In this document: one piece after another, positions 8,505 to 56,878 of the stretch
Layout of the letters: every line of letters begins with the position of its first letter
Numbering within the stretch: the stretch's first letter is position 1
Virus record (IMG/VR): IMGVR_UViG_3300032516_000008
Location: 29,092 to 93,091 of that record
Reading direction: 5' to 3' (one strand)
Origin: a virus
Taxonomy: Duplodnaviria; Heunggongvirae; Uroviricota; Caudoviricetes
Length of the DNA stretch: 64,000 bases
Program-made: the position numbers and the translations under genes
Notes under the pieces: model-generated
Databases searched by the model: none
What the model was told of the DNA's origin: nothing
The model's input: the letters and a program-made list of their open reading frames with translations, nothing else

Positions 8505-10961
8505 ATGAAATTTCTTGCTTTGATACAGAATGAATTTTTGCAGTTGCAAGCAAGCAGCATGTTCAAGACTGCAAAGAAGCAGTCTTTGAAGTCTTTTGAT
8601 AAAGAGATGGGTGAAAAGCGTGTGTCGAATCCGAGTTCTAAACGTGATAAGACACGTACAATAAAGATTAAGTCATTAAAGAGTGGCGATGAACGTCAAA
8701 AGGGCTTGTACAAACAGTTATATAAGCAATGGAAGGGTTCTAAGACTAAGAAAGTTGATACAAAAAAGCAAAAAGCTAAGTTGCCTAAGAAGCATCTGAC
8801 GCAATTAAAGAAAGAGTTTGAAGATAAGAAAAAGCAGCTTAAACCTAAGAAAAAATCATTGTCAGAGGCTGCTAAATATCGAAAATATTTAGAAAATCGT
8901 AAGAATCTTGAATTGCGTAAGAAAAAGAAATTGCCTGAAAAATCTAAAGTTGTTACAAATGCTAACGTTCCAAAAGAACAAAAAGAAGAAATAAAAGCTG
9001 ATGAATTACAGCAGAAGTTACAAGTTGAGAATGAACAGAGATTGAAAGCTATTGGTGACAAAACTGATAATCAATATAAGACCACAATTGAAACTGTCAA
9101 GAAAAATGAAAGTCAAATATATAGAGATGCAAGTAATTTGAGCGATCCTGCACCTCCAGATCCACAGAAATTGAAAAATATTCAGCAATATCAAGAGTCT
9201 TTAGATCGTGCATTAAAGGCAATGGATGTAGGTGATGCGCAAGTTTCAGATGTTGTCAATAGTCCTAATGTAGTAACGTACAAATTGAGTCTGAAACAGC
9301 TTTTAGATAAAGACAAAGCTAAGGCAATGCATAAGCTATTGTCGTCTGAAAGTAAGACCGTCATGAGTCATTTTATTGGTAAGAAAGAGAATGTTACTAT
9401 TACTGAAAATAGAGATACAGATACTATTGATGTTCATGTACCTAAAGGCACAGATTTAAGAGATAGAGATCCTGTATCGTTTAAAGAGTTGATTACAAAT
9501 GATGCGTTTGTGAAAGCTTCAAAAGATCCTACTAAATTGCCAATTGCGTTTGGTAAAGACGAGAACAACAATACAATAACTTACGATTTTAGTAAAACTC
9601 CTCACTTGATAGTTTCTGGTGCCACTAAATCAGGTAAGTCTGTGTTTAATCAGAGCATCATAAATTCAATTCAGATGGGTAAGTCACCTGATGAAGCCAA
9701 GATGATTTTGATTGATGCTGCTAAACAAGGCGCAGAGTTTGCGCAATATAAGGATAGTGAATATTTAGATAGACCTATAGCTGCTAATGCAAAAGAAGCA
9801 GAAGAGTCATTGCAAGCACTAAGTGATGAAGTCAATCGAAGAAACAATTTCTTTAAGAACACTAGTGGTTTGACAGGTATGAGCTTTAGGAATATTGAAG
9901 ATTGGAATTCGTTTATTGCTAAACAGCCTGAACAAATGAATGATAGTGAAAAGAAAGCGTTTGATCTAATACCGGCTGAGCAGCGTAAAAAAATGCATCG
10001 AATTGTGACGATAGTAGACGAAGCTAAAGATTTGTTTAATAAGGAAGTTAATCCGAATGCTGCAAGATTATTCAATTTAGTTGATCACATGCTAACAGTT
10101 GCTAGATCTGTCGGTGCTCACATGGTTATTGCAACGCAGTCACCTGCAAAGCAAAATATACCTGGAAAGATTCAGGCAAATATTGGTGCTAAGATGACTT
10201 TTAGATTGCAAAACAAGAGTGATGCTGAAAATATCGGTGTATCAGATGCTACAGATCTATTGATGTATGGTGACGGATATTTTGAAGACCCATCTATTGG
10301 TGGTGCACCTACAAGACTACAGACTGGATTCATTGATAAAAATGACGATGCAAAAATTACTAGCGTAACTAGAGGTGAACAAAAATTCATTGAGAAAGAA
10401 AAAAAGCCTGAGTTACCGACAGTACAGAGATTCAAAGCGACAGATGATCCAGTATATATTGAATTTCAGAAGCAAATGGCTGGTGTTCGTGAAAAACTTA
10501 ATGCACAACGCGAAAGACTCGAAGGACGATCAAAAGAACTTGATGCTAATATAGATAAAATACGAGCTCAGAGAGAAGAATTACAAAAACGACGTGAAGA
10601 ACGCCAAAAACAACTTGAAAAAACTCGTAGTGATCAAACTGACATCAAACGACAAAAAGAACGCACACCGTCTGATATTGATGTAGCTGAGCAGCCTGAA
10701 CAGCCTGAAGAGACTGACATTGACCAACTATTAGCTGATACAAGCAAAGGTCCTGAAACGAAATCAGAACCTGATATATCTGATAAGGACGCTGTTCGAA
10801 GAGAAATAGATGAAATTACAAAGCCTGAACCAGTAAAAGAACCTGTAAAATCTAATGATCCATTCCTTAAAAAAATTCGTGAAGACGCTGCAAAAAAGAA
10901 GATGGAACCTAAAAAGAAATCAATGCTTGATAGAATCAAAACACTACTTGGTAAAAAATGA
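8505..10961 (+). CDS. FtsK/SpoIIIE-family DNA translocase ATPase with Lys/Glu-rich N-terminus and C-terminal coiled-coil
   Basis: Walker A GATKSGKS, motif IDAAKQG (FtsK IDPK-like), Walker B VTIVDE, and VIATQSPA...ANIGAKMTFRLQNKSDAENIGVSDATDLLMYGDGYF, which parallels FtsK ATQRP...RIAF.V.S..DSRTILD..GAE.LLG.GDML. The N-terminus starts MKFLALIQNEFL. Confidence 0.85.
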   Translation: MKFLALIQNEFLQLQASSMFKTAKKQSLKSFDKEMGEKRVSNPSSKRDKTRTIKIKSLKSGDERQKGLYKQLYKQWKGSKTKKVDTKKQKAKLPKKHLTQLKKEFEDKKKQLKPKKKSLSEAAKYRKYLENRKNLELRKKKKLPEKSKVVTNANVPKEQKEEIKADELQQKLQVENEQRLKAIGDKTDNQYKTTIETVKKNESQIYRDASNLSDPAPPDPQKLKNIQQYQESLDRALKAMDVGDAQVSDVVNSPNVVTYKLSLKQLLDKDKAKAMHKLLSSESKTVMSHFIGKKENVTITENRDTDTIDVHVPKGTDLRDRDPVSFKELITNDAFVKASKDPTKLPIAFGKDENNNTITYDFSKTPHLIVSGATKSGKSVFNQSIINSIQMGKSPDEAKMILIDAAKQGAEFAQYKDSEYLDRPIAANAKEAEESLQALSDEVNRRNNFFKNTSGLTGMSFRNIEDWNSFIAKQPEQMNDSEKKAFDLIPAEQRKKMHRIVTIVDEAKDLFNKEVNPNAARLFNLVDHMLTVARSVGAHMVIATQSPAKQNIPGKIQANIGAKMTFRLQNKSDAENIGVSDATDLLMYGDGYFEDPSIGGAPTRLQTGFIDKNDDAKITSVTRGEQKFIEKEKKPELPTVQRFKATDDPVYIEFQKQMAGVREKLNAQRERLEGRSKELDANIDKIRAQREELQKRREERQKQLEKTRSDQTDIKRQKERTPSDIDVAEQPEQPEETDIDQLLADTSKGPETKSEPDISDKDAVRREIDEITKPEPVKEPVKSNDPFLKKIREDAAKKKMEPKKKSMLDRIKTLLGKK

Positions 10962-19836: not shown

Positions 19837-20004
19837 TCATTCCAGAATTGGTAACTATTGCAAATAGATTGCGTAGCCAAGGACATAGTTCAACAGCTGA
19901 TAAACTACAAGGTAAGCGAGTCATTGTAAAGCCTGCAACAATAAAAAAGACTGACACTACAGACAAAGCAGCTAAATTCAAATTTCTTTGTGAAGGAGAT
20001 TAAA

Positions 20005-21300
20005 ATGGAAGCTAAGTTGAAAAGACAGGCAACGCCGCACAAGATTAGATTAGTTGAGAGTCCTGAAGAAGTCAAAAAGCTGATTGATGTCGTCTATGAT
20101 AAGCTCAAGCCGACTATTTCAGCTAATGGTTTCAGAAAAGGTAGTGTGCCTCGTGAAGTAGCTGAGAAACAACCTCACTTCAACAAATACACTGCTTATT
20201 CAGAAGTATTTGATGTGCTGTACAAAAGAGCTCTTGAACAATTGAAGCTTGAAGTTGTTGAAGCATCTGATTTTGAAGTCGTTGGTCCATTTGAGGATAA
20301 TGTGCCATTGACAATTCAGGCTACAGTGTATTTGAAGCCGGCAGTTGAACGATTTGACATTAATGAAGTTAGTGTAGTGAAAAATGTCACGGTTGTATCA
20401 GAACAAATGGTTGATGATCAGATTAAGACAATACAAAATTCAAAGGCTTTGTTTGATAACATTACTGATTCAAATTATGTGATCAAAAACGGTGATACTT
20501 TGATCATAGATTTTTCAGGTCAAGTAGATGGCAAATCATTTTCTGGTGGAACAGCCAAGAATTTTAGATTTGTTGTTGGCGAGACTAAGTTCATTAGCGG
20601 TTTTGAAGAACAGATGGTCAAGTTTAAGTTGAATGAAGAAGGTAAGGTCATAACCAAGTTTCCTGATGATTATCATGCAAAAGAGTTGCAAGGTAAGAAC
20701 GCTGAATTTACTGTGAAGATTACAAAAATCGGTTCAAAACAGATTAAGACTATTGAGCAACTTGCAAGTGATGATGATAAGACGGTGGATGGATTTCGAC
20801 AAGCTGTTCGTGACAAACTTATTGTAGATCATGCTAAAATTGATGAAGAGAATTATGAATCTGACATTTTAACCCAATGTGTGTTGAAGGCTAAGATTGA
20901 GCCGATACCGACTGCTATGATTGAGTGGGAACTTGCTAATGAATGGCATCAGCTTATGTATCGGATGGATACAACTGAAGCAGATTTTTTGAAGAAGAAT
21001 AAGAATGGTAAGGACGTATTTTATGCTCAAAAGAGACCTCGAGTTGAAAAGACTCTTGAAGTAAAGATATTTCTTGATCATGTTAGTATGGTCAATAATT
21101 TTACGGCATCTAAGGAAGAAGTTGAGGCTTTCGTTGTTAATAGAGCTAAGACGCTGAATAAGAGTGACGAAGAAATAGAAGCTGTTCTTGAGAATTTGAA
21201 GAAGGACACAAATTATCGTGCAAGTGAAACAGCTGTTAAGCATGAAAAGGCTACTAAGTGGTTGTCTGATTCAGTAAGGAAGAATGTTGAAAACGCTTGA
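20005..21300 (+). CDS. tig: trigger factor homolog (ribosome-associated chaperone/PPIase)
   Basis: N-terminal GFRKGSVP signature, central FKBP-type PPIase region GDTLIIDFSGQVDGKSFSGGTAKNFRFVVGETKFISGFEEQ, length about 432 aa. GGAG ribosome-binding site 8 nt before the ATG at 20005. Confidence 0.75.
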   Translation: MEAKLKRQATPHKIRLVESPEEVKKLIDVVYDKLKPTISANGFRKGSVPREVAEKQPHFNKYTAYSEVFDVLYKRALEQLKLEVVEASDFEVVGPFEDNVPLTIQATVYLKPAVERFDINEVSVVKNVTVVSEQMVDDQIKTIQNSKALFDNITDSNYVIKNGDTLIIDFSGQVDGKSFSGGTAKNFRFVVGETKFISGFEEQMVKFKLNEEGKVITKFPDDYHAKELQGKNAEFTVKITKIGSKQIKTIEQLASDDDKTVDGFRQAVRDKLIVDHAKIDEENYESDILTQCVLKAKIEPIPTAMIEWELANEWHQLMYRMDTTEADFLKKNKNGKDVFYAQKRPRVEKTLEVKIFLDHVSMVNNFTASKEEVEAFVVNRAKTLNKSDEEIEAVLENLKKDTNYRASETAVKHEKATKWLSDSVRKNVENA

Positions 21301-29423: not shown

Positions 29424-29565
29424 TGATAGAATGGTTGTGTGGGATGAAGCTATTGATCACATGGATGGTGATGTGTATGACAACAATAGTGAATATCAGC
29501 AAGGCGTTATTATACGTAAGCAAATGATGAGAATGAGAGATAAATTTTACAAAAAGCATAGTTGA
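29395..29565 (+). CDS. small hypothetical protein (56 aa), not in the supplied track
   Basis: AGGAG ribosome-binding site 8 nt upstream of the ATG at 29395. The ORF reads MKKLTQEQIDDRMVVWDEAIDHMDGD... Confidence 0.35.
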   Translation: MKKLTQEQIDDRMVVWDEAIDHMDGDVYDNNSEYQQGVIIRKQMMRMRDKFYKKHS

Positions 29566-29573
29566 GTTTGTTG

Positions 29574-30299
29574 GTGAATGATCAAATAGGTATTACAGAA
29601 CGTGGTGATCCTGCTATTAACTGTCAATGGTGCCAATGGGTTATTGACGGTAATCCTGCTATTTTGATTACGAAAGATCCTCTTAGCCTATTCGATCATA
29701 TCAAAGTTATCATTGAAGATGGCAAACGCGAAGAAGTCTATCCCAGATTTCCAAATATCATAGTACATACGACAATTACTGGTTTTGCCAGATCAGTAAT
29801 TGAGCCAAATGTGCCTGACGTTGACGTTGCGTTACTAGGATTTGAAGAACTTTGTAAATTGTTAGGTCCGCAAAGAATAGTGTTGCGCATTGACCCAGTG
29901 GTGCCTACAGATGCGGGTATTGACACGGCGCATGACATATTGTGTAGGGCTCAGAAGCGATTTAAGACTCGAGTGAGAGTGTCATTTATTGATCAGTATG
30001 ATCATGTCAAAAAGAGGTTCAAAGATATTGATGTTGAATTGCCGTGGACGACATTTCATGCACCGTTAAAGTTAAGAAAAAAGGCATGGGAAAGACTTGG
30101 TCAACCGGAAGTATGTGGTGAACCAGATTTTGAATGTACAGGATGTATTTCAGCTAAAGACTGCGAACTGCTTGGTATACAACCTATTGACAAGTTCTCA
30201 AAGCAAAGACCTTGTTGCGCATGTCTTGGTAATAAAAAAGAGTTGTTGAACAGTAAGTCTCAGTGCATTCATCGCTGTGCATATTGCTACTGGAGGTGA
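29574..30299 (+). CDS. Cys-rich hypothetical protein (possible metal/Fe-S binding C-terminus)
   Basis: The track ORF begins at TTG 29562, with an in-frame GTG at 29574. C-terminal cluster CGEPDFECTGC...CCAC...CIHRCAYCYW. Confidence 0.4.
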   Translation: MNDQIGITERGDPAINCQWCQWVIDGNPAILITKDPLSLFDHIKVIIEDGKREEVYPRFPNIIVHTTITGFARSVIEPNVPDVDVALLGFEELCKLLGPQRIVLRIDPVVPTDAGIDTAHDILCRAQKRFKTRVRVSFIDQYDHVKKRFKDIDVELPWTTFHAPLKLRKKAWERLGQPEVCGEPDFECTGCISAKDCELLGIQPIDKFSKQRPCCACLGNKKELLNSKSQCIHRCAYCYWR

Positions 30300-30496: not shown

Positions 30497-30730
30497 TTTA
30501 GTGTGATTAGTTGTCAATATGGCAACTGATGAAGAAATTATTTTGAAGTTTATGGAAGTAGCTATTGGGTGACGATATTTGGATCATGAGTGCAAATCCT
30601 GGTCAAATTGTCGAACATGTGCATATAGACATACCATTGTATAGAGTAAAAGATATGAAACGAACAAAACAGTTCACTGATTACGTGTATTATATTGAGG
30701 ACAAGCTAAACAATTTATAAGGAGGGCTAC

Positions 30731-31312
30731 ATGAACGAGTGGTGGGTAGGTATGTCAGCAATTGAACACGTCTATTGGTTCATTGCAGTTATAGCAAGCA
30801 CAGCATTGCTTATTCAAGCAATCTTGACATTTGCTGGTATGTCGCATGATTCTATTGACTTTCATCACGATGTGTCAAGTGGTCATGGTGACATGCAAGC
30901 TCATTTTCAATTGCTAAGTATTAGATCGCTAGTTGCGTTTTTCACAATGCTTGGTTGGAGTGGCATAGCACTAATTCATGCAAAAGGTGCATTGAACAAT
31001 CCTGTTTTGGTTGTAGTTGTATCGATTATAGTCGGTAGTGTATTTGCTGTGGTAGTTGCTGGTTTTTTCTATGGAATGACAAAGTTAGTTAGTAGTGGTA
31101 ATGTAGATATCAAAAATACGATTGGTCGAACAGCTAGTGTTTATTTGAAAATTCCTGCTAATATGTCAGGTACTGGAAAAGTGAATGTCATGATTCAAAG
31201 TCAAGTAAGAGAATTTGATGCCATGAGTAAAGATCTTACGGCAATTCCGTCAGGGTCACCAGTAAAAGTAGTAGATGTCCAAAACAATACTTTAATCGTT
31301 GAAAGGGGCTAG
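30731..31312 (+). CDS. YqiJ/NfeD-like membrane protein
   Basis: Two N-terminal transmembrane helices plus a C-terminal OB-like soluble domain. AAGGAGGG ribosome-binding site. Lies immediately upstream of the flotillin gene, as in the yqiJK operon. Confidence 0.55.
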   Translation: MNEWWVGMSAIEHVYWFIAVIASTALLIQAILTFAGMSHDSIDFHHDVSSGHGDMQAHFQLLSIRSLVAFFTMLGWSGIALIHAKGALNNPVLVVVVSIIVGSVFAVVVAGFFYGMTKLVSSGNVDIKNTIGRTASVYLKIPANMSGTGKVNVMIQSQVREFDAMSKDLTAIPSGSPVKVVDVQNNTLIVERG

Positions 31313-31313
31313 T

Positions 31314-32708
31314 ATGTATCTGTTGATTGCTGCAGCAGCTGGCGTCATTATCTTGTTCGTGCTTTTTATCTCGGTTCTTACGAGGTATAAGAAGTGTCCG
31401 TCAGACAAGATATTGATTGTGTATGGAAAAGTGGCAAAGGGTAGTACTTCAAAGTGCATTCATGGTGGTGCGGCTTTTGTATGGCCTATCATTCAAGACT
31501 ATGCATATTTGGGTCTTACTCCAATGCAAATTGAAGTACCATTGCAAAATGCATTGAGCAAACAGAATATTCGAGTCGATGTGCCTTCAAATTTCACAGT
31601 TGGTATTTCAACAAAGCCTGAGATTATGACGGCTGCTGCTGAACGACTTTTGGGTTTACAATCCAAAGAGATTCAGGGTATAGCTAGGGAAATTATCTTT
31701 GGCCAACTTCGTTTGTCAGTAGCAACAATGGACATCGAAGAAATTAATGCTGATAGAGACAAGTTCCTTGAGAACATTTACAAGAATGTTGAAGTTGAAC
31801 TTGAGAAGATCGGTCTGCGATTGATCAATGTCAATATTACTGACATTCAAGATGAATCTGGTTACATCAAGTCTCTTGGGCAGAAAGCTGCTGCAGAAGC
31901 ACTTAACAAGGCTAAGAAAGATGTAGCTGAGAAAGATCGTGATGGAGCAATTGGTCAGGCAAATGCTGATAGAGATAAGAGAGTGCAAGTTGCAGGTGCA
32001 AATGCTACAGCTGTTGAAGGTGAAAATGCAGCTCAGGTGACAATTGCAAATTCAACATCAGATATGCGACAGAAGAAAGCTGAAGCTGAACGAGCAGCTA
32101 TAGCATCAGAAAAGGTTGCAACAGCAAAAGCTTTGCAAGAAGCCTATGCTGCTGAACAAATTGCTGAAGCGACTCGTGCAGACAGAGAAAGAGCTACACA
32201 GACTGCCAATGATGTTGTCAAAGCTGAGATTGACAAAAAGAAGATTGAGATTGCGGCTAGTGCTCAGGCTGAGAAACTGCGACTTGAAGCTAGAGGTCAA
32301 GCAGATGCCACATATGCTAACCTTGAAGCTCAGGCAAGAGGACTTAAGGAGATGTTGATCAAGCAGGCTGAGGGATTGAAAGAGATTGTTGCAGCTGCCG
32401 GTAACAATCCACAGCAGACTCAGCAAGCAGCAATGTTGATGATTATCGATAAGTTGCCTGAAATAGTCAAGACTCAGGTTGAGGCTATTAAGGGTATTAA
32501 GATCGATAAGGTTACTGTTTGGGACGGTATGGGTAATGGTTCAGGCAATGGCAAACCAACGACTGCCAATTTCTTGTCAGGTATGCTTGGATCAGTTCCT
32601 CCATTGCAAGACTTGTTCAATATGGCAGGAATGAAGTTGCCAGAGTATTTGGGAAAGACTCCTGAGAAACCGGCAATTACAACTGAAACAACTGAAGTTA
32701 AGGGCTAA
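31314..32708 (+). CDS. flotillin-like SPFH-domain protein (YqiK/FloA-like)
   Basis: N-terminal transmembrane helix, SPFH/band-7 domain, and a long Ala/Glu/Gln-rich coiled-coil (EA repeats). Confidence 0.75.
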   Translation: MYLLIAAAAGVIILFVLFISVLTRYKKCPSDKILIVYGKVAKGSTSKCIHGGAAFVWPIIQDYAYLGLTPMQIEVPLQNALSKQNIRVDVPSNFTVGISTKPEIMTAAAERLLGLQSKEIQGIAREIIFGQLRLSVATMDIEEINADRDKFLENIYKNVEVELEKIGLRLINVNITDIQDESGYIKSLGQKAAAEALNKAKKDVAEKDRDGAIGQANADRDKRVQVAGANATAVEGENAAQVTIANSTSDMRQKKAEAERAAIASEKVATAKALQEAYAAEQIAEATRADRERATQTANDVVKAEIDKKKIEIAASAQAEKLRLEARGQADATYANLEAQARGLKEMLIKQAEGLKEIVAAAGNNPQQTQQAAMLMIIDKLPEIVKTQVEAIKGIKIDKVTVWDGMGNGSGNGKPTTANFLSGMLGSVPPLQDLFNMAGMKLPEYLGKTPEKPAITTETTEVKG

Positions 32709-32907
32709 TATGAAGACAGTACAAGATGAAGTAGGTAAAAGTGCATGGATGTCTTGGCCTACTGGTGCAACAGTCGCGATAGAACGGTTAGAAAGTTTCA
32801 TTCAAGATATTAAGTACAAAGTAGAATCAGCACAAAGAACAGGCAATGACAAATATCTTGAAGAAATAATCAAGTCTATCGATCGCGAATAAGTAGTTGA
32901 GAGAAGG

Positions 32908-32945: not shown

Positions 32946-33574
32946 GTTCGAGAAGCGATTATTGAATCTGAATCGGTTTCAAAGCTACTGATCCTGGCCG
33001 AAATCGAGGACGAATTATAGCGCTTTGTCACGCTATAAATCTCTATGACTCTGTCTTTAACTAATCTCCTTATTGACTCTGGCAGCGAAAGACAACGTAT
33101 TATACGCGTCAATTTGACATTAAATTTACAACAAATTCTACAATTGTACTTGAACGCAGACTCAGCGATGAAAACATGTCAAAGTTTACAAATGAAAATA
33201 AAATTACTATTTGTAAATTTCTATGACTCGACGTCGCTAAATAGAAGCAGTAAAATGGCAAAACATCGTTTGGCGACAATGAGACTGATGTTCAGCTCAC
33301 AATAGTATGTCACATGCTGCATCGACAATTGTCAACGATAAACGCATAGACTATTTTTGCGAAGCATGATAACTGTTCGTGAAATCTGTAGAGAATTTAG
33401 CATGTCCAGAAGCACTGTTAAACGGTTGATAAAGCGAGTGAAATTACTGCTCATACTTGATATTCGAAAATATTCTAGGCTTACTGCTAATGAGCAACAA
33501 CAAAAGCCAAGCTTTGAACGTTCGCTGTTTTTTTAGAAATTAGTTAACTCTCTGTTATTTCTACGCAATTTGAC
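32946..33574 (+). promoter_or_regulatory. 630-bp AT-rich non-coding region upstream of the PolX gene with hairpin and repeated motifs (candidate promoter/origin region)
   Basis: No credible ORF. Perfect 8-bp inverted repeat TTATAGCG-ctttgtca-CGCTATAA (about 33015-33038). Direct repeats TCTATGACTC (33039, 33219) and CAATTTGACAT (33109, 33566), which contain TTGACA. Confidence 0.35.
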
Positions 33575-33589
33575 ATGATTACTACTAAT

Positions 33590-35248
33590 ATGATAAACCA
33601 AGACGTTGCAAAGATTCTCTACGACATTGCTGAAATAAAGCAGCACCAGAATGATAACAAGTTTTCAATCGGTGCCTATAGAAAAGCTGCTAAATTCATT
33701 TCTAACCTACCTACGCCGGTCTCAGAATTGGATCTTTTGACCACCAAAGGTATTGGTCCTAAGATTGCGAACAGTATACTAGAATTCCTCTCTACTGGCA
33801 AAGTTCAATTTATCGTAGATAATCAGGCGTGCTTGAACGCTTCTCAGAAAGTCGAAGAGTTGCTTAGAATTGAAGGAATTGGCGAGAAAAAGGCATTGAA
33901 AATCTACGAGACACTCGGGATATCTATGATTGCTGAGTTGAAAGTTGCTATTGAGAATGGCAAACTTGCACAGGTTTTCAAAGACAAAACGATCGAAAAC
34001 ATCAAACAAGGCATAGAATATCTTGAGACAACTCGTGGTAGAATTCGTCTTGATGAAGCTTTGGAATTAATAGTACAAATTCATAGTGAACTGAGAGAGT
34101 TTTGTGACAGGATTGAATTTTGTGGTTCTTTCAGACGGTCAAAGTCAACCATTGGTGATATTGATTTTGCAGTTGTATCGAGCGATAGCGATTTTTTACA
34201 GCGATTTGCAACCTTACCAATAGTTGATAAAGTTATAGATATTGGTAAGAAAAAAGCATCAGTTTGGGTCAAGGGTATTCGCATCGATTGCTACATCTTT
34301 GAAGCAGACACTTTTGAGTCTGGTGTTATGCATCTTACAGGTTCTGCAGATCATAATGAAGAGCTTCGTAGAATTGCAAAATCAAAGGGATTAATTCTAT
34401 CACAGTACGGTCTTTACAGACGATTCGGTGACGAACGAACTGGTGACCGTCTTGATGATGGTACTGAGACTAGCATCTACAATTCCCTTGGATTCAATTT
34501 CATACCACCAGAACATCGTGATGATGTCTCTCAGTTTGGAAAGTATCGCATTGATCAACCAGCAGTGAATTTATTGAAGGCCGATGATATTGAGTGTGAT
34601 TTTCATACTCATTCAACATGGTCTGACGGCAAATCAACGATTGAAGAAATGGTGCAAGCTGCGATAAGGCAAGGGCTAAAGGGCATAGCAATAACAGATC
34701 ATTCACAAGTAATTTCTACGAAAGTACTGGCAGTCGATATTAAACGGAAGATTGGCGAGATAGAAGTCTTGAGGATGAAATATCCAACCATTAAGATATT
34801 AATGGGGAGTGAAGTTAACATTAAATCTGATGGTTCACTCGATTACTCAGATGAAATTCTCGACCAACTTGACATTGTAATTGCATCAATTCACGTTCAT
34901 ACAAAGCAAGATGTCACAGAAATGTATTGCAAAGCAATTCGCACTGGTAAAGTCCACATCATAGGTCATCTAACAGGTCGACTCATAAATCAACGACCTG
35001 GTCATGTCATGAATGTTGAAGCAATTCTGCAAGAGTGCAGGAATCATAACGTCGCCATAGAGTTTAATTGTCAACCAGATAGACTAGATGCTGATGAAGA
35101 TGTCATACGAAGATGTAAGGATATGGGCATCAAAATTGCTATTGGGTCAGATGCTCATGAAAAAAGTCAGATTCAGTATTCTAAGACATTTGGATTGTGG
35201 ATTGGTCGTAGAGCGTGGTTGACAAAGAATGATTTACTGGAGGCATAA
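33590..35248 (+). CDS. family X DNA polymerase (Pol beta-like) with C-terminal PHP phosphoesterase domain
   Basis: HhH GIGPKIA, nucleotidyltransferase GSFRRSKSTIGDIDFAV, PHP motifs DFHTHSTWSDG and ITDHS. An alternative start at 33575 is possible. Confidence 0.8.
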   Translation: MINQDVAKILYDIAEIKQHQNDNKFSIGAYRKAAKFISNLPTPVSELDLLTTKGIGPKIANSILEFLSTGKVQFIVDNQACLNASQKVEELLRIEGIGEKKALKIYETLGISMIAELKVAIENGKLAQVFKDKTIENIKQGIEYLETTRGRIRLDEALELIVQIHSELREFCDRIEFCGSFRRSKSTIGDIDFAVVSSDSDFLQRFATLPIVDKVIDIGKKKASVWVKGIRIDCYIFEADTFESGVMHLTGSADHNEELRRIAKSKGLILSQYGLYRRFGDERTGDRLDDGTETSIYNSLGFNFIPPEHRDDVSQFGKYRIDQPAVNLLKADDIECDFHTHSTWSDGKSTIEEMVQAAIRQGLKGIAITDHSQVISTKVLAVDIKRKIGEIEVLRMKYPTIKILMGSEVNIKSDGSLDYSDEILDQLDIVIASIHVHTKQDVTEMYCKAIRTGKVHIIGHLTGRLINQRPGHVMNVEAILQECRNHNVAIEFNCQPDRLDADEDVIRRCKDMGIKIAIGSDAHEKSQIQYSKTFGLWIGRRAWLTKNDLLEA

Positions 35249-39233: not shown

Positions 39234-39866
39234 TCAGGTCTGTTGTCGAAGATTTGACGCTAACCATTTTTTTGCCTCTTGACTAGTGTATATCTCATTG
39301 TTATCAATTATCTTACAAAATTGTTCGTATGAAATCTTTGGGAAAGCATGAATCGCTGAATCTAGTGAAACATTGTAGATTTTAGATGGACAATCTTTAT
39401 AGACATCAAATCTAGCATTGCCTCGTATATAGACCATTTCATCTTGTGTACCGCGATGTACAATGTCATGAAAGTGACTCTTATCATTAACAAATCGTCC
39501 ATCAAATCCAAGCAGATAAATCTCTTTGAATTTCAAAGCTATACCTAGCGATAATGAGAATAGTCCAACTAAATACGGATGATACAGTCCTTTTGACAAC
39601 CCGTCTAGTCCATGATATTCTTTTGCTGATAATAGCTTGAATACGTCTGCTGGCACATCACGACTGTCTCTTGTGATTTTAACGCATTTGAGGTTGTTTA
39701 TTACTTGCTGATGTTTAGAGTAGAAATCTCGATCAATCCAGATTAGTGCTGTGGGATCGTAATAGTGGCAAACGAAATTCAAACCAAATGTGAACTCATG
39801 ATTGAGCTTAGCTAAGTCAAATCCTTTTATGCTTGATCCGCCGCCGATGATTACTAATCTATTCAT
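39234..39866 (-). CDS. Cst-II-like (GT42 family) sialyl/nonulosonic-acid transferase-like protein
   Basis: RLVIIGGGSSIKGFDL matches Cst-II VIIAGNGPSLKEID. LGIALKFKEIYLLGFDGRF matches Cst-II ALGYKEIYLSGIDFY. A conserved NDKSHFH region is present. Confidence 0.5.
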   Translation of the reverse strand: MNRLVIIGGGSSIKGFDLAKLNHEFTFGLNFVCHYYDPTALIWIDRDFYSKHQQVINNLKCVKITRDSRDVPADVFKLLSAKEYHGLDGLSKGLYHPYLVGLFSLSLGIALKFKEIYLLGFDGRFVNDKSHFHDIVHRGTQDEMVYIRGNARFDVYKDCPSKIYNVSLDSAIHAFPKISYEQFCKIIDNNEIYTSQEAKKWLASNLRQQT

Positions 39867-42800
39867 TTTTGTATTTTCTTGATGCTTGAAAATGCTCTAT
39901 AACAGGTTTGCCAGCATCTTTCATTAAGTCAAATATTTGGCAATAAGTGGATGGCAAATGAAATACTTTCAATGAATGTAATGTGCTGACTGCCTCATGC
40001 AAATAAGATTGATCGAGTCTGTATTTCGTTCTATCTGCATTTACTAATTCAGTCCATTTAGCTAACAATTTTAGTGCACCGATAGTACAGTTGAAATACA
40101 TAGTGCCACCAAGAAGTTCAGTACTACCATTTGATTTAATTCTTGGATGAAATGCGAAATCAAACTCATTTAATGTAGATAGAAGTTGCGGATCTTGCTG
40201 TATTATGGCATCACAATCTACCCATACTACAGGTCGGTTATGCTTATTTAGCATGTCTTTGACAAATGTTGTACGATAGAAACAGTTATTGAACCAACTT
40301 CCTTGTGAATTAATACCGACAATTTCATAATCTAAATTGAATCGCCTTAATGAAGCTTCCAACTTCTTATATTCGTTTTCATAGCCTGTATTTTTTGTGT
40401 AGTAAGATATGAATAATGGTTTTACTAATCTAGATATCACAGGAGCGCATTCGACTTTTGCTATGTCATCAGCACATTCAACTTTTGCTATGTCAGGAAC
40501 ACATTCGATTTTTGCTATGTTAGATATGGGTTGCAATTTCAACGGTTCATGTTCAATTTGTATTTGCGGTTTAGTTACTGGTTTTGCTAGTTCACATTGA
40601 ATTAATTCTGAAAAAGTAGTTTGCTCAGTTTGTACTTCTAAGTTGTCGAATGTTAATTCATTTGAATTTGGTAATGACTGTATGAATTCATCGCCAAGAT
40701 TTTTTATGTCTTTGAATTTGTTTTGCATAATTAATTCAAACGCTTTATCCCATAAACTTTGATTAGCGGCCCAACTAAAAAACTTCAAAATATACTGTCT
40801 ATTTCTCTTACCTACTTCTTGTCGCAGTGACTTACTATTACTAAGTAATGACAATCGATTGTTCATTTCTGAAATAACATTTTCTTCAGGCAATGTACTT
40901 ACGATCCATTCTTTATCTAACAACATTCCTATACAACCAACCCTTGTTGAAACTACAGGCAATCCACAAGACATGGCCTCTAATACTACTCTTGGCATAC
41001 ACTCGCTAATACTTGTCAATACTAGTACATCAATTGAGTGATAAAATAACTTCATGTCATTTAATGATCTACCATCAGAGAAAAACTGCTTGCCCCAGTC
41101 ACTTTTCTTAATAACATTGAATTTTAGTTTATTTAGTAAATGTGGTCGCTTTACATCACGCAAACAACCGGCCCAACCAACTATAAAGTTATTGTCATCT
41201 TTCACGGCTGCAGTAAAGAAGTTGGTATCAATTGATTCTGGTAGAAACGCTACAGACTTATTAGGATACATGTTGTTCAAACAGTCCAGATGTCTCATAG
41301 ATATTGACACTATAAGATCTGGGTCAGTGTCATATTTTAGTTTTGATTCTCCACCATAACCACCAATAACTTTGATGCCTTTTTGTTTTAATACTGAAAC
41401 TAGACTGTTGATTTTAGCATGATCAATATTTGGTGCATGAATGTACACTATGTCTGCATCTATGTCAGTGACATCGATTAATCGTTTGTATGTGATATCA
41501 TGCGAAGAATACAGTTGTTGTTCTTTTGCTACAAAATAGTATGCCCAACCAAATTGGTCAATTATTTTGCAAATTCTAAGCTTTTTAGGAACTGGTTTAG
41601 ACTGTGTTACTATTTGTTTTGTTAGTGGCTTATATTCATCCCAATTTCTGAAACACATTTTGCATGTGTCTGTCATCTTATTAACGTCACATAAACTGTC
41701 TCTTAGTTTTCTAGCACTATCATTTAACCAAACATTTTCAAAATTCTTAAGTGATCCATTAGCTCTATTTGGTGCATAAACTGATCCGCAAAATGTTACA
41801 CTACCATTGCCGTTTATTCCTATTGTAGTCCAAGGTATTTGACAATTGCAACGAACTTCATTACGGTTTATTAATGTCGGAAATACCTTAATCAAATTAG
41901 CTTCGGGCAGATCTTGTAATGCATCAATTTTATGCTTGTCATCATATGTTAACACTTCTTGCCAAAACGACTCGTCATTATAATCGCTTGCTAAGTGCGG
42001 TAACAGATTTAATAAGTGCACAGTCTTTACACCTAAAGAGTTCACTAACGTCAAAAATTCAGGAATATATCGTAGATTACTTTTTGTGCATACGTAGGAA
42101 CAATACGTGGGTAAACCATTACTTACGCAGAGTCCTATTCCTTGTAAGACAGTATTAAATATCAATGATTTGTTTATTTCATTATGCATCTTTGCATTTG
42201 ACGCGTTTAAGCTTATAGATATATAGTCTGGTCTGTTTGCTAATAGGCTATTGATTTTTTCAACTATTAGTGATCCGTTTGTTATTAGTCCAACAACTTT
42301 GTTTCTTGATTTTAGAAATGATATGATGTCAAAAAGACTATCACATAAAAAAGGTTCTCCGTAGCCAGCACAACAAACGCCTCTAATTGATGGATGTTTG
42401 ATTAACAGATCACTGACATTTTTTAGTGTCATGTCAATCGACTGTTCAATTGATTGCGAATTACGATAGCAAAATCTGCAGTTGAAATTACATTTTGATG
42501 TTAGATACAGGTTTGCACTAACAGGTGGATTCATAAAACTTCTCATTGTTTCAAACGATGTATTTCTGTTTCTAAAGTCTTTCTCACCAACTTGAACAGC
42601 GTCTGTAATCAGACTTGTATATGCACCAAGTAAAGCATATAAATTCTGTTCAGTTGGTTCAGCTTTCAACATTGACCATAACTTTACAGGTAGGTCACTC
42701 ATCCAGATATATTTGAACTGTTTGAATTTGTCAAGTAAATTACGATATCTATCAAATATTCCTTCATTAGACCAATATGGTGCATGCTGGCCAACTACAT

Positions 42801-43245
42801 TAGTCATTAATGTAATTTCATATTTGTCATTTTTCATTCTATCCATTTGTTCAACTTCGCACGACATTGAGGACAAGTCGTATGGATATCTCTTAAGTAT
42901 GTCGTGCTTGTAAATCTTGACACCATAAATTTCAAAATTCAAATGTACATCAATCAACTTACAAGCAATCATAGCTGTCATTGGTGCAGATTCAACAGCA
43001 TACTTGTGTAAGGTTTCAATACCGTTTGCATTCATGACCATATCTTCATCAATTTCAATATAGTATCGAGTCTTGCAAGAATCTATCATGCACTGAAAAG
43101 CTCTTGACATTGGATGAACGTTTTTGATAATCTCGACTTTGAATGAAACTGTTTGAGAGTTTAATGACTGCAAGCATGCGTCATAGCAAGGATTATGACC
43201 GCTACTTATGACAAAAACTGTTAAGTCAGATAAAAACACGCTCAT
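39859..43245 (-). CDS. four-domain enzyme: GT2 glycosyltransferase - radical SAM/SPASM - GT4 glycosyltransferase - linker repeats - GT-A (DxD) nucleotide-sugar transferase
   Basis: N-terminal GT2 motifs (VFVISSGHN...SLNSQT, EIDEDM). Radical SAM LTSKCNFNCRFC plus GYGEPFL, with SPASM-like cysteines CNCQIPW...GSVTFCGSVY. GT4 motif EAMSCGLPVVSTRVG. 3x IAK(I/V)EC linker repeats. C-terminal VWVDCDAII. Confidence 0.7.
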   Translation of the reverse strand: MSVFLSDLTVFVISSGHNPCYDACLQSLNSQTVSFKVEIIKNVHPMSRAFQCMIDSCKTRYYIEIDEDMVMNANGIETLHKYAVESAPMTAMIACKLIDVHLNFEIYGVKIYKHDILKRYPYDLSSMSCEVEQMDRMKNDKYEITLMTNVVGQHAPYWSNEGIFDRYRNLLDKFKQFKYIWMSDLPVKLWSMLKAEPTEQNLYALLGAYTSLITDAVQVGEKDFRNRNTSFETMRSFMNPPVSANLYLTSKCNFNCRFCYRNSQSIEQSIDMTLKNVSDLLIKHPSIRGVCCAGYGEPFLCDSLFDIISFLKSRNKVVGLITNGSLIVEKINSLLANRPDYISISLNASNAKMHNEINKSLIFNTVLQGIGLCVSNGLPTYCSYVCTKSNLRYIPEFLTLVNSLGVKTVHLLNLLPHLASDYNDESFWQEVLTYDDKHKIDALQDLPEANLIKVFPTLINRNEVRCNCQIPWTTIGINGNGSVTFCGSVYAPNRANGSLKNFENVWLNDSARKLRDSLCDVNKMTDTCKMCFRNWDEYKPLTKQIVTQSKPVPKKLRICKIIDQFGWAYYFVAKEQQLYSSHDITYKRLIDVTDIDADIVYIHAPNIDHAKINSLVSVLKQKGIKVIGGYGGESKLKYDTDPDLIVSISMRHLDCLNNMYPNKSVAFLPESIDTNFFTAAVKDDNNFIVGWAGCLRDVKRPHLLNKLKFNVIKKSDWGKQFFSDGRSLNDMKLFYHSIDVLVLTSISECMPRVVLEAMSCGLPVVSTRVGCIGMLLDKEWIVSTLPEENVISEMNNRLSLLSNSKSLRQEVGKRNRQYILKFFSWAANQSLWDKAFELIMQNKFKDIKNLGDEFIQSLPNSNELTFDNLEVQTEQTTFSELIQCELAKPVTKPQIQIEHEPLKLQPISNIAKIECVPDIAKVECADDIAKVECAPVISRLVKPLFISYYTKNTGYENEYKKLEASLRRFNLDYEIVGINSQGSWFNNCFYRTTFVKDMLNKHNRPVVWVDCDAIIQQDPQLLSTLNEFDFAFHPRIKSNGSTELLGGTMYFNCTIGALKLLAKWTELVNADRTKYRLDQSYLHEAVSTLHSLKVFHLPSTYCQIFDLMKDAGKPVIEHFQASRKYKNE
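40445..40525 (-). repeat. 3 x 27-bp tandem repeat encoding IAK(I/V)EC(V/A)xD linker units inside the multidomain gene
   Basis: gcRcattcRaYttttgctatgtYa repeated three times. Confidence 0.8.
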
Positions 43246-52891: not shown

Positions 52892-52898
52892 TGGAAAT

Positions 52899-52970
52899 GC
52901 CTCGATAACTTAGCGGTCAAAGTGACGGTCTCTAAAACCGTTATCGCCAGTTCAAATCTGGCTCGAGGCA
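52899..52970 (+). tRNA. amber suppressor tRNA (anticodon CTA, reads UAG); short variable arm, discriminator A
   Basis: Acceptor GCCTCGA/TCGAGGC, D-arm ACTT-AGCGGTCA-AAGT, anticodon arm ACGGT-CTCTAAA-ACCGT (U33, anticodon C34 U35 A36), T-arm GCCAG-TTCAAAT-CTGGC. Confidence 0.7.
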
Positions 52971-53142
52971 TTTTTCATAGCTATTCTAATTGACTATTAT
53001 ACTATGGCTAAAAACATAAGCTGTAGAGTCTGCAGTAAATCATTCAATGTCAAAGAATCGACGCGTGTATACGGAGACATACCAGCAAATCACAGATGCT
53101 GTTCTGCGCGATGTTATACAGAATTTTTGAAAGGTGTAGATA

Positions 53143-55714: not shown

Positions 55715-56878
55715 ATGTTTTCATATAAAAAAGATCAATTTCGTGTGCCAGTAAAAGTCTGGATGAACGAAAGTAGCTATTATGCTGATGATGCAATGGT
55801 TAAACAAGTAGAGAATTTGGCAATATTACCTTTTGTATTTAGTCATATTTCTTTGTCTCCTGACGGGCACGTTGGCTACGGGATGCCAATTGGCGGCGTT
55901 ATGGCAACCAAAGGCGTCATAGTTCCAAATGCTGTTGGTGTTGACATTGGTTGCGGCATGTGTGCAGTTAAGACGTCATTGCAATCAATTGACAAAGATG
56001 AATTGAAAAAGACAATGGGAAGGATTCGTGAAGCAGTCCCTGTAGGATTCGAACATCACAAAGAGAAAATATCGTGGGAAGGGTTTGATCGAGCACCTAA
56101 TGTAGCAATTATTCAACAGCAATTGAGTACAGCACAGACTCAGCTTGGTACGCTAGGAGGTGGCAATCACTTCATTGAGATTCAAAAGGGATCAGATGGT
56201 TTTGTTTGGGTCATGCTACATTCTGGTTCTCGGAATTTTGGCTTGAAAATAGCCAATGAATATCATAAGAAAGCACAATGGCTATGCGAGAAATGGTATT
56301 CGAGTATACCCGACAAAGACCTTTCGTTTCTTCCAATGGAAACAAAAGAAGCACATGAATACTTTGATGTCATGAAGTTTGCACTTGAGTTTGCAAAAGA
56401 GAACAGATTTCGAATGATTGACGCAATAAAACAATCATTTGATATTTCAGGAATTACGTTTGATGAAACAATCAACATTCATCACAATTATGCAGCTTGG
56501 GAACATCATTTTGGTGAAGATGTCATTGTTCACAGAAAAGGTGCGACATCAGCCAGAAAAGATCAAATCGGATTGATACCCGGTTCTCAAGGTACAAAAA
56601 GCTATGTAGTACGTGGCAAAGGTAATGAAGATTCATTCATGTCATGCTCGCACGGTGCTGGTAGAAAAATGGGACGGAAACAAGCACAAAGAGAATTGAA
56701 TTTAGATGCCGAAAAGAAACTACTTGATGATCAAGGCATCATTCATGCCATTCGAAATAAAGCTGACTTAGATGAAGCTGCCGGTGCTTACAAAGACATA
56801 AGTGTTGTTATGGACAATCAAAAAGATTTGGTGGATATTGTAGTAGAACTTTCACCATTAGCTGTCATAAAAGCATAA
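55715..56878 (+). CDS. rtcB: RtcB-family RNA 3'-phosphate ligase
   Basis: VGVDIGCGMCAV, GGGNHF, HHNYAA, and SCSHGAGRKMGR metal/GTP-binding motifs. Length 387 aa. Confidence 0.85.
   Translation: MFSYKKDQFRVPVKVWMNESSYYADDAMVKQVENLAILPFVFSHISLSPDGHVGYGMPIGGVMATKGVIVPNAVGVDIGCGMCAVKTSLQSIDKDELKKTMGRIREAVPVGFEHHKEKISWEGFDRAPNVAIIQQQLSTAQTQLGTLGGGNHFIEIQKGSDGFVWVMLHSGSRNFGLKIANEYHKKAQWLCEKWYSSIPDKDLSFLPMETKEAHEYFDVMKFALEFAKENRFRMIDAIKQSFDISGITFDETINIHHNYAAWEHHFGEDVIVHRKGATSARKDQIGLIPGSQGTKSYVVRGKGNEDSFMSCSHGAGRKMGRKQAQRELNLDAEKKLLDDQGIIHAIRNKADLDEAAGAYKDISVVMDNQKDLVDIVVELSPLAVIKA

What the first reader, a model, noticed from the sequence alone, without database searches (positions are those of the whole stretch)
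30731..32708. Phage copy of the NfeD (YqiJ)-flotillin (YqiK/FloA) membrane-microdomain operon
A two-transmembrane-helix plus OB-domain NfeD-like protein is immediately followed by an SPFH/flotillin protein with a long EA-rich coiled-coil, the same arrangement as bacterial yqiJK. A phage-borne flotillin pair suggests manipulation of membrane microdomains (assembly site, lysis timing or superinfection exclusion).
Basis: partly seen in the sequence, partly recalled or inferred. Interest (0 to 1): 0.6.

Follow-up and report, generated by a model that had tools for sequence, protein, structure and literature searches.

The report
Phage-borne NfeD–flotillin membrane scaffold operon
A large uncultivated phage carries an intact, strongly conserved copy of the bacterial two-gene NfeD–flotillin membrane-scaffold operon. 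The same pair turns up in about two hundred other viral contigs, so it is a real and recurrent but functionally unstudied phage accessory module.

Summary
ORF 30731-31312 is a short NfeD protein with three predicted membrane helices and a C-terminal OB domain. ORF 31314-32708 is a true flotillin: N-terminal anchor, SPFH domain, long Ala/Glu-rich helices, and full-length similarity to human flotillin-1/2. The genes are 1 nt apart, and a 60-aa ORF follows after another 1 nt.

The window is a large tailed phage: baseplate gene, replication genes, homing endonucleases, 16 tRNAs. The cassette is not contamination. Its GC3 matches the phage, the same context was assembled on 10 independent contigs, and it is syntenic in a 128-kb IMG/VR relative.

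Both proteins are full-length homologues of a two-gene operon conserved in Bacteroidota, Clostridia and other bacteria (flotillin about 62% identical, NfeD about 35%). They are not orthologues of E. coli YqiJK or FloA. The phage copy is under strong purifying selection (dN/dS 0.05), keeps 181 of 184 conserved residues and shows no rate acceleration.

At least 194 IMG/VR contigs encode a flotillin, and 77 of 77 examined have the membrane partner directly upstream.

Most likely role (inferred): a host-like scaffold that maintains the inner membrane and its proteins during long infections. It is a new member of a known kind, of moderate interest.

The parts
30719..30725 (+). Shine-Dalgarno sequence AAGGAGG, 5 nt before the NfeD start codon
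   Evidence: Read directly from the sequence. SD-like motifs precede 47% of the window's ATG ORFs against a 10% background.
30731..31312 (+). Short NfeD protein, 193 aa. Membrane helices at about 10-34, 64-83 and 91-122. His/Asp-rich loop at 37-60. C-terminal OB-fold partner-binding domain at 131-192. The stop codon is TAG.
   Evidence: Pfam NfeD 30.1 bits. AF2 model. Foldseek top hits YuaF 2k14, PH1510-C 3wwv, 3cp0 and YbbJ 8z5g. Full-length homology to the upstream partner in 77 of 80 bacterial loci. dN/dS 0.15 against L003.
31314..32708 (+). Flotillin, 464 aa. N-terminal membrane anchor at 1-26, SPFH domain at about 32-180, long Ala/Glu-rich helices at 184-361, and a C-terminal flotillin region. 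The start codon lies 1 nt after the NfeD stop.
   Evidence: Band_7 97.9 bits and Flot 26.1 bits. NCBIfam FloT 169 bits. PDB flotillin-1/2 at E 1e-24. AF2 model and Foldseek hits to 9l3g and 9bq2. dN/dS 0.049. 181 of 184 conserved residues retained.
32710..32892 (+). 60-aa soluble ORF, translationally coupled (1 nt after the flotillin stop). Phage-specific accessory gene of unknown role.
   Evidence: 72% identical at the same position in L003, dN/dS 0.21. Absent from L005, L032 and the 80 bacterial loci. No Pfam or PADLOC hit.

Best explanation
Identity (shown, about 0.95). A large tailed phage carries a complete, translationally coupled copy of the cellular short-NfeD/flotillin operon. The copy was captured from bacteria, has adopted phage base composition, and is kept under strong purifying selection.

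Mechanism (inferred, about 0.4). The cassette lies in the replication and accessory-gene region of the phage rather than among structural genes.
1. The flotillin inserts by its N-terminal helix into the host inner membrane.
2. It oligomerises through its long helices into an SPFH-type cage or scaffold on the cytoplasmic face.
3. The three-helix NfeD partner docks its cytoplasmic OB domain onto that scaffold.

Because the phage protein is nearly indistinguishable from cellular flotillins, it most likely performs the normal cellular job: keeping membrane fluidity and integrity, and stabilising membrane proteins without ATP. It would supplement or replace the host scaffold once host gene expression is shut off. 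That would keep the energised membrane working through the long infection cycle of a large phage. The logic is the same as for other host-like auxiliary genes.
For: Identity:
- Domain and fold assignments.

Phage context:
- Baseplate_J, DnaB, helicase, NAD-ligase, PolX, RtcB, homing endonucleases and 16 tRNAs. Distant relatives are jumbo phages.

Not an artefact:
- GC3 equals that of the rest of the phage.
- Ten independent contigs carry the same context.
- Synteny with a 128-kb IMG/VR genome.

Captured as an operon:
- Both proteins are full-length homologues of adjacent genes in 71-77 of about 80 bacterial genomes.
- The phage clade nests among cellular sequences in an NJ tree.

Canonical function retained:
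- dN/dS is 0.049 for the flotillin and 0.15 for NfeD at dS of about 1.1.
- 181 of 184 positions that are at least 90% conserved in the comparison set are unchanged.
- There is no rate acceleration: 0.60-0.63 identity to a Bacteroidota-type reference set, against 0.59-0.64 for cellular sister sequences.

Recurrent selection in phages:
- 194 IMG/VR contigs encode a flotillin. All 77 examined have a 160-200-aa multi-TM partner 7-55 nt upstream (one overlaps the flotillin ORF as called). 65 of the 80 contigs returned are at least 75 kb.
- The cassette persists while neighbouring accessory genes vary.

Cellular function, from the literature:
- FloA-NfeD stabilises unfolded proteins without ATP (PMC11222466).
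- Flotillins control membrane fluidity (PMC7360373).
- SPFH proteins act in membrane protection (PMC8581546).

The same phage also encodes a trigger-factor chaperone.
Against: - No expression, localisation or phenotype data exist for any phage flotillin. The searched literature only notes phage SPFH genes in passing as unexplained (PMC13239085, PMC13384950).
- The host is unknown, so it is not known whether the host has its own flotillin.
- Promoter and terminator scans were uninformative, so expression timing is inferred from gene neighbourhood alone.
- Strong conservation is equally compatible with a phage-specific use of the same scaffold.
- Some 'cellular' comparison sequences are metagenomic and could themselves be viral.
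- The NJ tree has no support values.
- Flotillin mutants in bacteria often have mild phenotypes (PMC13086221). This weakens the argument that supplementation would matter.
Confidence: 0.45

Rival explanations
1. Phage-specific scaffold. The flotillin/NfeD cage concentrates phage membrane-associated machinery, such as membrane-tethered replication or assembly complexes or holins. It would thereby set the place or timing of assembly and lysis, rather than maintaining general membrane health.
For: - The cassette sits among replication genes here (DUF1848, PolX, ligase, helicases) and in csAssE-Sib (DnaB, primase, exonuclease).
- A phage-specific 60-aa ORF is translationally coupled to the flotillin.
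- The NfeD loop is remodelled from poly-Asp to His-rich in this lineage.
- Cellular flotillins do act as scaffolds for specific complexes (PMC5718613).
Against: - No phage membrane protein, holin or endolysin is adjacent to the cassette.
- The 60-aa ORF is not conserved beyond the closest relative.
- The flotillin shows no phage-specific substitutions at conserved positions and no rate acceleration, which a new client interface might produce.
Confidence: 0.22
2. Conflict module. The phage scaffold either protects the infected cell membrane against membrane-disrupting abortive-infection effectors, or blocks DNA entry by superinfecting phages through sequestering or altering membrane components.
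For: - The cassette lies in a variable accessory region that also carries counter-defence-type genes:
  - RNA ligase or RtcB tRNA-repair genes in the window, L005, L012, L026 and KIT04.
  - OmpA-like and ABC-permease genes inserted just upstream in L003.
- Host membrane-remodelling proteins are known to affect phage lysis (DynA, PMC8844932).
Against: - Neither protein hits any PADLOC defence model.
- Nothing in the sequence points to a sensor or effector.
- Conflict genes usually evolve fast, whereas this flotillin is among the slowest-evolving genes in the region.
Confidence: 0.15
3. Artefact or passenger. The pair is host DNA mis-assembled into a viral contig, or a recent, functionless hitch-hiker.
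For: - The flotillin is 60-68% identical to thousands of bacterial proteins.
- Regional GC is slightly raised (0.41 against about 0.37).
Against: - GC3 matches the phage. The GC rise comes from the Ala/Gly-rich amino-acid composition.
- Ten independent assemblies carry the same context.
- Synteny and purifying selection hold across relatives at dS of about 1.
- The cassette is conserved in at least four phage-like contigs of the clade and in other viral lineages.
Confidence: 0.03

Closest known systems
Cellular ~195-aa NfeD / ~470-aa flotillin operon of Bacteroidota, Clostridia, Chitinispirillia, Latescibacteria and others (e.g. Marinifilum, Tannerella, Clostridium bovifaecis)
   Same: - Same two genes in the same order with a short or absent spacer.
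- The flotillin is 58-68% identical over its full length, and NfeD is 30-43% identical over its full length.
- Same helix count and the same OB domain.
   Different: - Encoded by a phage, at phage base composition.
- The TM1-TM2 loop is short and His-rich instead of poly-Asp.
- An extra coupled 60-aa ORF lies downstream.
Bacillus subtilis YuaF (NfeD2)-FloT (YuaG) operon
   Same: - Short NfeD followed by a FloT-type flotillin.
- The only NCBIfam hit is the FloT model.
- The best structural match of the NfeD domain is YuaF 2k14.
   Different: - The score of 169 bits is far below the FloT equivalog cut-off of 700, so it is not an orthologue.
- There is no yuaI-like third gene.
Escherichia coli YqiJ-YqiK
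   Same: A membrane OB-domain protein followed by a flotillin with an N-terminal anchor and long Ala/Glu-rich helices.
   Different: - YqiK is only 24% identical, with many gaps.
- YqiJ is not detectably similar (E 0.26). It belongs to its own Pfam families, YqiJ_N and YqiJ_OB, which the phage protein does not hit.
Eukaryotic flotillin-1/flotillin-2 complex (PDB 9bq2, 9l3g)
   Same: Best solved-structure relatives by sequence (E 1e-24 over aa 44-413) and by fold. SPFH domain plus long helical wall-forming segments.
   Different: - The membrane anchor is an N-terminal helix.
- There is an NfeD partner.
- The oligomeric state of the phage protein is unknown.
E. coli QmcA-YbbJ SPFH-NfeD cage (PDB 8z5g) and S. 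aureus FloA-NfeD
   Same: An SPFH protein paired with an NfeD operon partner. YbbJ is among the fold matches of the phage NfeD. These systems supply the working model of a cage plus a docked NfeD (PMC11222466; Tan et al. 2024 as cited in PMC13086221).
   Different: - QmcA is a weak match to the phage flotillin (E 1e-4).
- These are stomatin-like or FloA-type SPFH proteins without the flotillin C-terminal region.
Flotillin genes already annotated in phage genomes: Vibrio phage KIT04 (LC487410) and gut phage csAssE-Sib (OR575929)
   Same: A phage-encoded flotillin preceded by a small multi-TM protein, in early or replication regions.
   Different: - 31-46% identity, on separate branches of the tree.
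- The KIT04 partner is only 82 aa and lacks the OB domain.
- No functional study was found for either.

Membership tests
SPFH / Band 7 superfamily | SPFH (Band_7) alpha/beta domain | tested here: met
   PF01145 scores 97.9 bits against a cut-off of 23.6, over aa 34-213. The modelled SPFH domain matches the flotillin-2 Band 7 domain 1win (TM 0.72) and stomatin SPFH domains.
Flotillin family (flotillin-1/2, FloT, YqiK type) | C-terminal flotillin region with long Ala/Glu-rich helices after the SPFH domain | tested here: met
   - PF15975 Flot scores 26.1 bits, just under its cut-off of 27.
- phmmer aligns aa 44-413 to human flotillin-1/2 at E 1e-24.
- Helices are predicted at 184-242 and 250-361.
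- The region is 27% Ala and 10% Glu.
Flotillin family (bacterial type) | N-terminal membrane anchor | tested here: met
   A single hydrophobic segment at aa 1-26, modelled as helix 2-24 and followed by the basic motif RYKK.
Flotillin family | Assembly into large homo-oligomeric membrane cages or microdomains | not testable with these tools
   Only a monomer model could be made. Oligomerisation is inferred from homology.
FloT equivalog (NCBIfam NF058507) | Score above the curated equivalog cut-off | tested here: not met
   169 bits against a cut-off of 700. It is a relative of FloT, not an orthologue.
FloA-type short flotillin | Match to a FloA family model and a length of about 330 aa | tested here: not met
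   The NCBIfam scan returned only FloT. The protein is 464 aa and has a flotillin C-terminal region.
NfeD family (short form) | C-terminal OB-fold partner-binding domain | tested here: met
   PF01957 scores 30.1 bits against a cut-off of 29.1. The top Foldseek hits are all NfeD soluble domains: 2k14, 3wwv, 3cp0, 8z5g_AA and 2exd.
NfeD family (short form) | N-terminal multi-helix membrane domain and no ClpP protease domain | tested here: met
   Three helices at 10-34, 64-83 and 91-122. The protein is 193 aa and has no protease domain hit.
NfeD family | Encoded in an operon with an SPFH gene | tested here: met
   A 1-nt gap separates it from the flotillin. The same pairing is seen in 71 of 72 bacterial loci and 77 of 77 viral loci.
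NfeD family | Physical binding of the OB domain to the SPFH partner | not testable with these tools
   No complex prediction or experiment was available.
YqiJ family (Pfam YqiJ_N PF21001 / YqiJ_OB PF07290) | Match to the YqiJ models or to YqiJ itself | tested here: not met
   Only E. coli YqiJ hit those models in the 19-protein scan. BLASTP of the phage NfeD against YqiJ gives E 0.26.
Known anti-phage defence systems (PADLOC) | Match to any defence-system protein model | tested here: not met
   No hit for NfeD, the flotillin or the 60-aa ORF.

The most novel reading that the evidence does not exclude
Large phages from very different lineages and habitats (sediment phages, a prevalent ~150-kb human-gut phage group, jumbo-size contigs, a T5-like vibriophage) may have independently captured and kept NfeD-flotillin pairs. 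They would use them to build their own membrane cage in the infected cell. That cage would enclose or exclude specific host or phage membrane proteins, for example a protease, a defence effector or an entry channel. This would be a virus-made membrane compartment in bacteria rather than simple housekeeping.
Probability: 0.15. Interest if true: 0.75.

Novelty: new member of a known kind. Interest (0 to 1): 0.45.

Why it matters
The function of bacterial flotillins and NfeD partners is still debated, and their mutants often show weak phenotypes. Phages keep only genes that pay their way. A flotillin/NfeD pair held under strong purifying selection in about two hundred viral contigs implies a measurable fitness effect during infection.

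Phage infection could therefore serve as a sensitive assay for what these scaffolds do. At least one carrier, Vibrio phage KIT04, was isolated on a named host strain. The finding also adds membrane organisation to the list of host processes that large phages supplement with their own genes.

Tried and rejected
- Nucleotide search of the region against GenBank phages found no match, so the phage has no close isolate relative.
- PHROGs has no family for either protein.
- PADLOC shows no defence-system relationship.
- The sigma-70 promoter and terminator scan around the cassette was at chance level and found no terminators, so operon boundaries and timing could not be set.
- Orthology with E. coli YqiJK was rejected. 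FloA-type identity was rejected.
- Host contamination or a chimeric assembly was rejected.
- TAG read-through of the NfeD stop by the phage's CTA-anticodon tRNA was considered. It would add only 25 aa in a frame different from the flotillin's. TAG is an ordinary stop in 18 of 76 ORFs, and coding density is 92.5% in the standard code, so recoding is not indicated.
- Host assignment from the flotillin failed. The subfamily is 58-66% identical across several phyla. Frequent SD motifs argue weakly against a Bacteroidota host.
- The conserved non-coding stretch downstream was folded as RNA. The z-score of -1.5 is not significant.
- Literature searches found no functional study of a phage flotillin.
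Full report
**1. What is in the sequence**

The interval holds two co-directional ORFs.

ORF 30731-31312 (193 aa):
- It passes the Pfam NfeD gathering threshold only narrowly: 30.1 bits against 29.1, over aa 131-192. I therefore tested it by structure.
- An AlphaFold2 model built on eight homologues (mean pLDDT 72) has three long hydrophobic helices at 10-34, 64-83 and 91-122. A five-strand beta domain follows at 134-192.
- Foldseek against the PDB returns NfeD soluble domains as the top six hits. These are B. subtilis YuaF 2k14, P. horikoshii 1510-C 3wwv, 3cp0, E. coli YbbJ in the QmcA-YbbJ cage 8z5g, MTH693 2k5h and PH0471 2exd.

Second ORF:
- It is best started at ATG 31314, giving 464 aa. 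Public gene calls on identical contigs use that start.
- It has Band_7 at 97.9 bits, Flot at 26.1 bits (cut-off 27), and a sub-threshold match to the NCBIfam FloT model and no other.
- It aligns over aa 44-413 to human flotillin-1 and flotillin-2 at E about 1e-24.
- Its model has an N-terminal helix (2-24), an SPFH domain, then helices 184-242 and 250-361. The best fold matches are the flotillin complexes 9l3g and 9bq2.
- The helical region is 27% Ala and 10% Glu.

Gene junctions, read directly from the sequence:
- AAGGAGG lies 5 nt before the NfeD ATG.
- The NfeD stop (TAG) is 1 nt before the flotillin ATG.
- The flotillin stop (TAA) is 1 nt before the ATG of a 60-aa ORF at 32710-32892.

**2. 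The window is a phage, and the cassette belongs to it**

Phage character of the window:
- A Baseplate_J protein followed by a 2157-aa Ig-domain protein.
- An FtsK-like ATPase, two helicases including a DnaB-like one, and an NAD-dependent ligase.
- PolX-PHP, RtcB and homing endonucleases.
- A trigger-factor homologue.
- 16 tRNA genes.
- The baseplate protein's only GenBank phage relatives are 300-500-kb jumbo phages. No nucleotide-level relative exists among isolates.

Evidence that the cassette is native:
- GC rises slightly over the flotillin gene. However, third-position GC is 0.28 for NfeD and 0.34 for the flotillin, inside the 0.25-0.375 range of the other phage ORFs. A Chitinispirillaceae homologue has 0.58. 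The rise comes from amino-acid composition, not foreign origin.
- The identical flotillin lies in the same gene context on ten contigs assembled independently in JGI, ENA and Logan data, up to 113 kb.
- A 91%-identical copy is syntenic in a 128-kb contig that IMG/VR lists as viral. The order there is DUF1848 ... NfeD, flotillin, small ORF, HTH, PolX.
- A 76%-identical copy lies in a 62-kb phage-like contig. Another clade member lies on a dense contig of small unknown ORFs.
- In these relatives the genes between DUF1848 and the cassette differ. In L003 an OmpA-like protein, an ABC permease and a GIY-YIG endonuclease are inserted there. The NfeD-flotillin pair is retained in all of them.

**3. 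Origin**

- The flotillin is 58-68% identical over its full length to thousands of cellular proteins. These come from Bacteroidota, Clostridia/Bacillota, Chitinispirillia, Latescibacteria, Spirochaetia and others.
- In 71 of 72 such bacterial loci, a ~195-aa multi-TM protein lies directly upstream, with a median gap of 21 nt.
- The phage NfeD aligns over its full length to that partner in 77 of 80 loci, at 30-43% identity and E down to 1e-41.
- The phage therefore carries both genes of a conserved cellular operon.
- In an NJ tree, the window, L003, P0003, L005 and P0006 form one clade nested among cellular sequences. Three other viral groups branch separately. The tree has no support values, so the number of captures is only suggestive.
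- E. coli YqiK is 24% identical, and YqiJ is not detectably similar. The arrangement is the same, but these are not orthologues.

**4. Selection**

| Gene (window vs L003) | dN/dS | Note |
|---|---|---|
| Flotillin | 0.049 | dS 1.07 |
| NfeD | 0.153 | |
| 60-aa ORF | 0.21 | |
| PolX | 0.07 | |
| DUF1848 | 0.096 | |

- Against L005, the flotillin stays 75% identical while DUF1848 falls to 36% and NfeD to 42%.
- Of 184 alignment columns that are at least 90% conserved in the non-phage comparison set, the window keeps 181.
- Phage copies are no more diverged from a Bacteroidota-type reference set than their cellular sister sequences are (0.60-0.63 against 0.59-0.64). There is no sign of neofunctionalisation in the flotillin.
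- The NfeD partner evolves faster everywhere. In the window and L003, its TM1-TM2 loop is short and His-rich, whereas nearly all other viral and cellular partners have a poly-Asp loop.

**5. How common it is in viruses**

- GenBank phages hold two credible complete genomes with a flotillin. These are gut phage csAssE-Sib and the T5-like Vibrio phage KIT04, both annotated 'flotillin family protein'.
- Two degenerate peptide patterns found 194 IMG/VR contigs that encode a relative.
- Of the 80 returned, 65 are at least 75 kb and two exceed 400 kb.
- In all 77 with upstream sequence available, a 160-200-aa multi-TM protein lies directly upstream: 7-55 nt away in 76, and overlapping the flotillin ORF as called in one.
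- By sequence, only 6 of 19 representative partners reach the Pfam NfeD model. The rest share the architecture only.
- About 58 of the loci belong to one ~150-kb human-gut phage group resembling csAssE-Sib.
- Flanking genes that could be named are phage-typical, such as RNA ligase and NAD ligase.

**6. Mechanism**

Shown: family membership, membrane anchors, operon structure, phage residence and purifying selection.

Inferred from the families:
- The flotillin would oligomerise into an SPFH cage or scaffold on the cytoplasmic face. Basic residues follow its anchor.
- The NfeD OB domain, which follows TM3 and basic residues, would lie on the same side and dock onto the scaffold, as in QmcA-YbbJ and FloA-NfeD.

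Cellular roles reported in the literature:
- ATP-independent stabilisation of unfolded membrane-associated proteins (PMC11222466).
- Control of membrane fluidity (PMC7360373).
- Membrane protection (PMC8581546).

The phage flotillin is essentially a canonical copy. The most economical reading is that it supplies this same function in the infected cell, sustaining the membrane through a long infection. I put this at about 0.4-0.45.

Rivals are a phage-specific scaffold for replication, assembly or lysis timing (about 0.2) and a conflict role in counter-defence or exclusion (about 0.15). Nothing computed here separates these decisively. An artefact is effectively excluded.

**7. Novelty**

- The protein families and the operon are well known.
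- Phage copies are already annotated in public records. SPFH genes in phages have been remarked on as unexplained (PMC13239085, PMC13384950).
- I found no functional study.
- This is a new member of a known kind. Its added value is that the pair, not just the flotillin, is recurrent and strongly constrained in large phages.

Noticed in passing
window 33060-33340: A ~270-nt stretch with no called gene lies between the flotillin cassette and the small HTH gene (ATG about 33366-33536). It is about 85-90% identical to relative L003, although synonymous sites of flanking genes are 50-60% diverged. It contains a perfect 9-bp inverted repeat, TTTACAAAT-N15-ATTTGTAAA, and two TTGACx...TAnnAT motifs. 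It may be an operator/promoter region for the HTH protein. The RNA fold z-score is only -1.5.
   Followed up: partly
window 52898-52971: A tRNA with anticodon CTA (amber suppressor, called 'Pyl' by ARAGORN) sits within a phage tRNA cluster. TAG is still an ordinary stop in 18 of 76 ORFs, and coding density is 92.5% in the standard code, so there is no sign of stop-codon recoding in this window. The NfeD gene ends in TAG, and read-through would add 25 aa.
   Followed up: partly
window 19990-21300: A phage-encoded full-length trigger-factor homologue (Trigger_N, FKBP_C and Trigger_C domains; phrog_26774). Together with the flotillin-NfeD pair, this is a second proteostasis-type gene in the same phage.
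   Followed up: no
window 30840-30910 (NfeD aa 37-60): The loop between membrane helices 1 and 2 is short and His-rich (SHDSIDFHHDVSSGHGD) in this phage and in L003. Nearly all other viral and bacterial partners have a long poly-Asp DxDxD loop there. This may reflect a change in metal or ion binding.
   Followed up: no
window 29562-30299: A DUF1848 protein lies upstream of the cassette and is conserved in the same position in L003 and L005. It also matches a PADLOC model for a DUF1848 component associated with defence-related reverse transcriptases (PDLC03815, E 3e-15).
   Followed up: no
window 39859-43245 (- strand) and 8505-10961, 33575-35248, 55715-56878: Other unusual cargo:
- A 1128-aa radical-SAM plus glycosyltransferase fusion, heading a minus-strand block with lower GC (about 0.34).
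- An FtsK/SpoIIIE-like ATPase.
- A PolX-PHP polymerase.
- An RtcB RNA ligase.

   Followed up: no
L037-L113 (IMG/VR loci); L001 (OR575929 csAssE-Sib): About 58 of the 80 viral flotillin loci returned belong to one group of ~150-kb human-gut phages, with a 566-aa flotillin and a 164-aa partner 31-34 nt upstream. In csAssE-Sib an acyl carrier protein gene lies immediately upstream of the pair. In Maribacter (L031) a ketoacyl synthase does. This hints at a possible lipid link.
   Followed up: partly
whole window: Shine-Dalgarno-like motifs precede 47% of ATG ORFs against a 10% background. This argues weakly against a Bacteroidota host, even though many of the closest flotillin homologues are from Bacteroidota. 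The host remains unassigned.
   Followed up: partly
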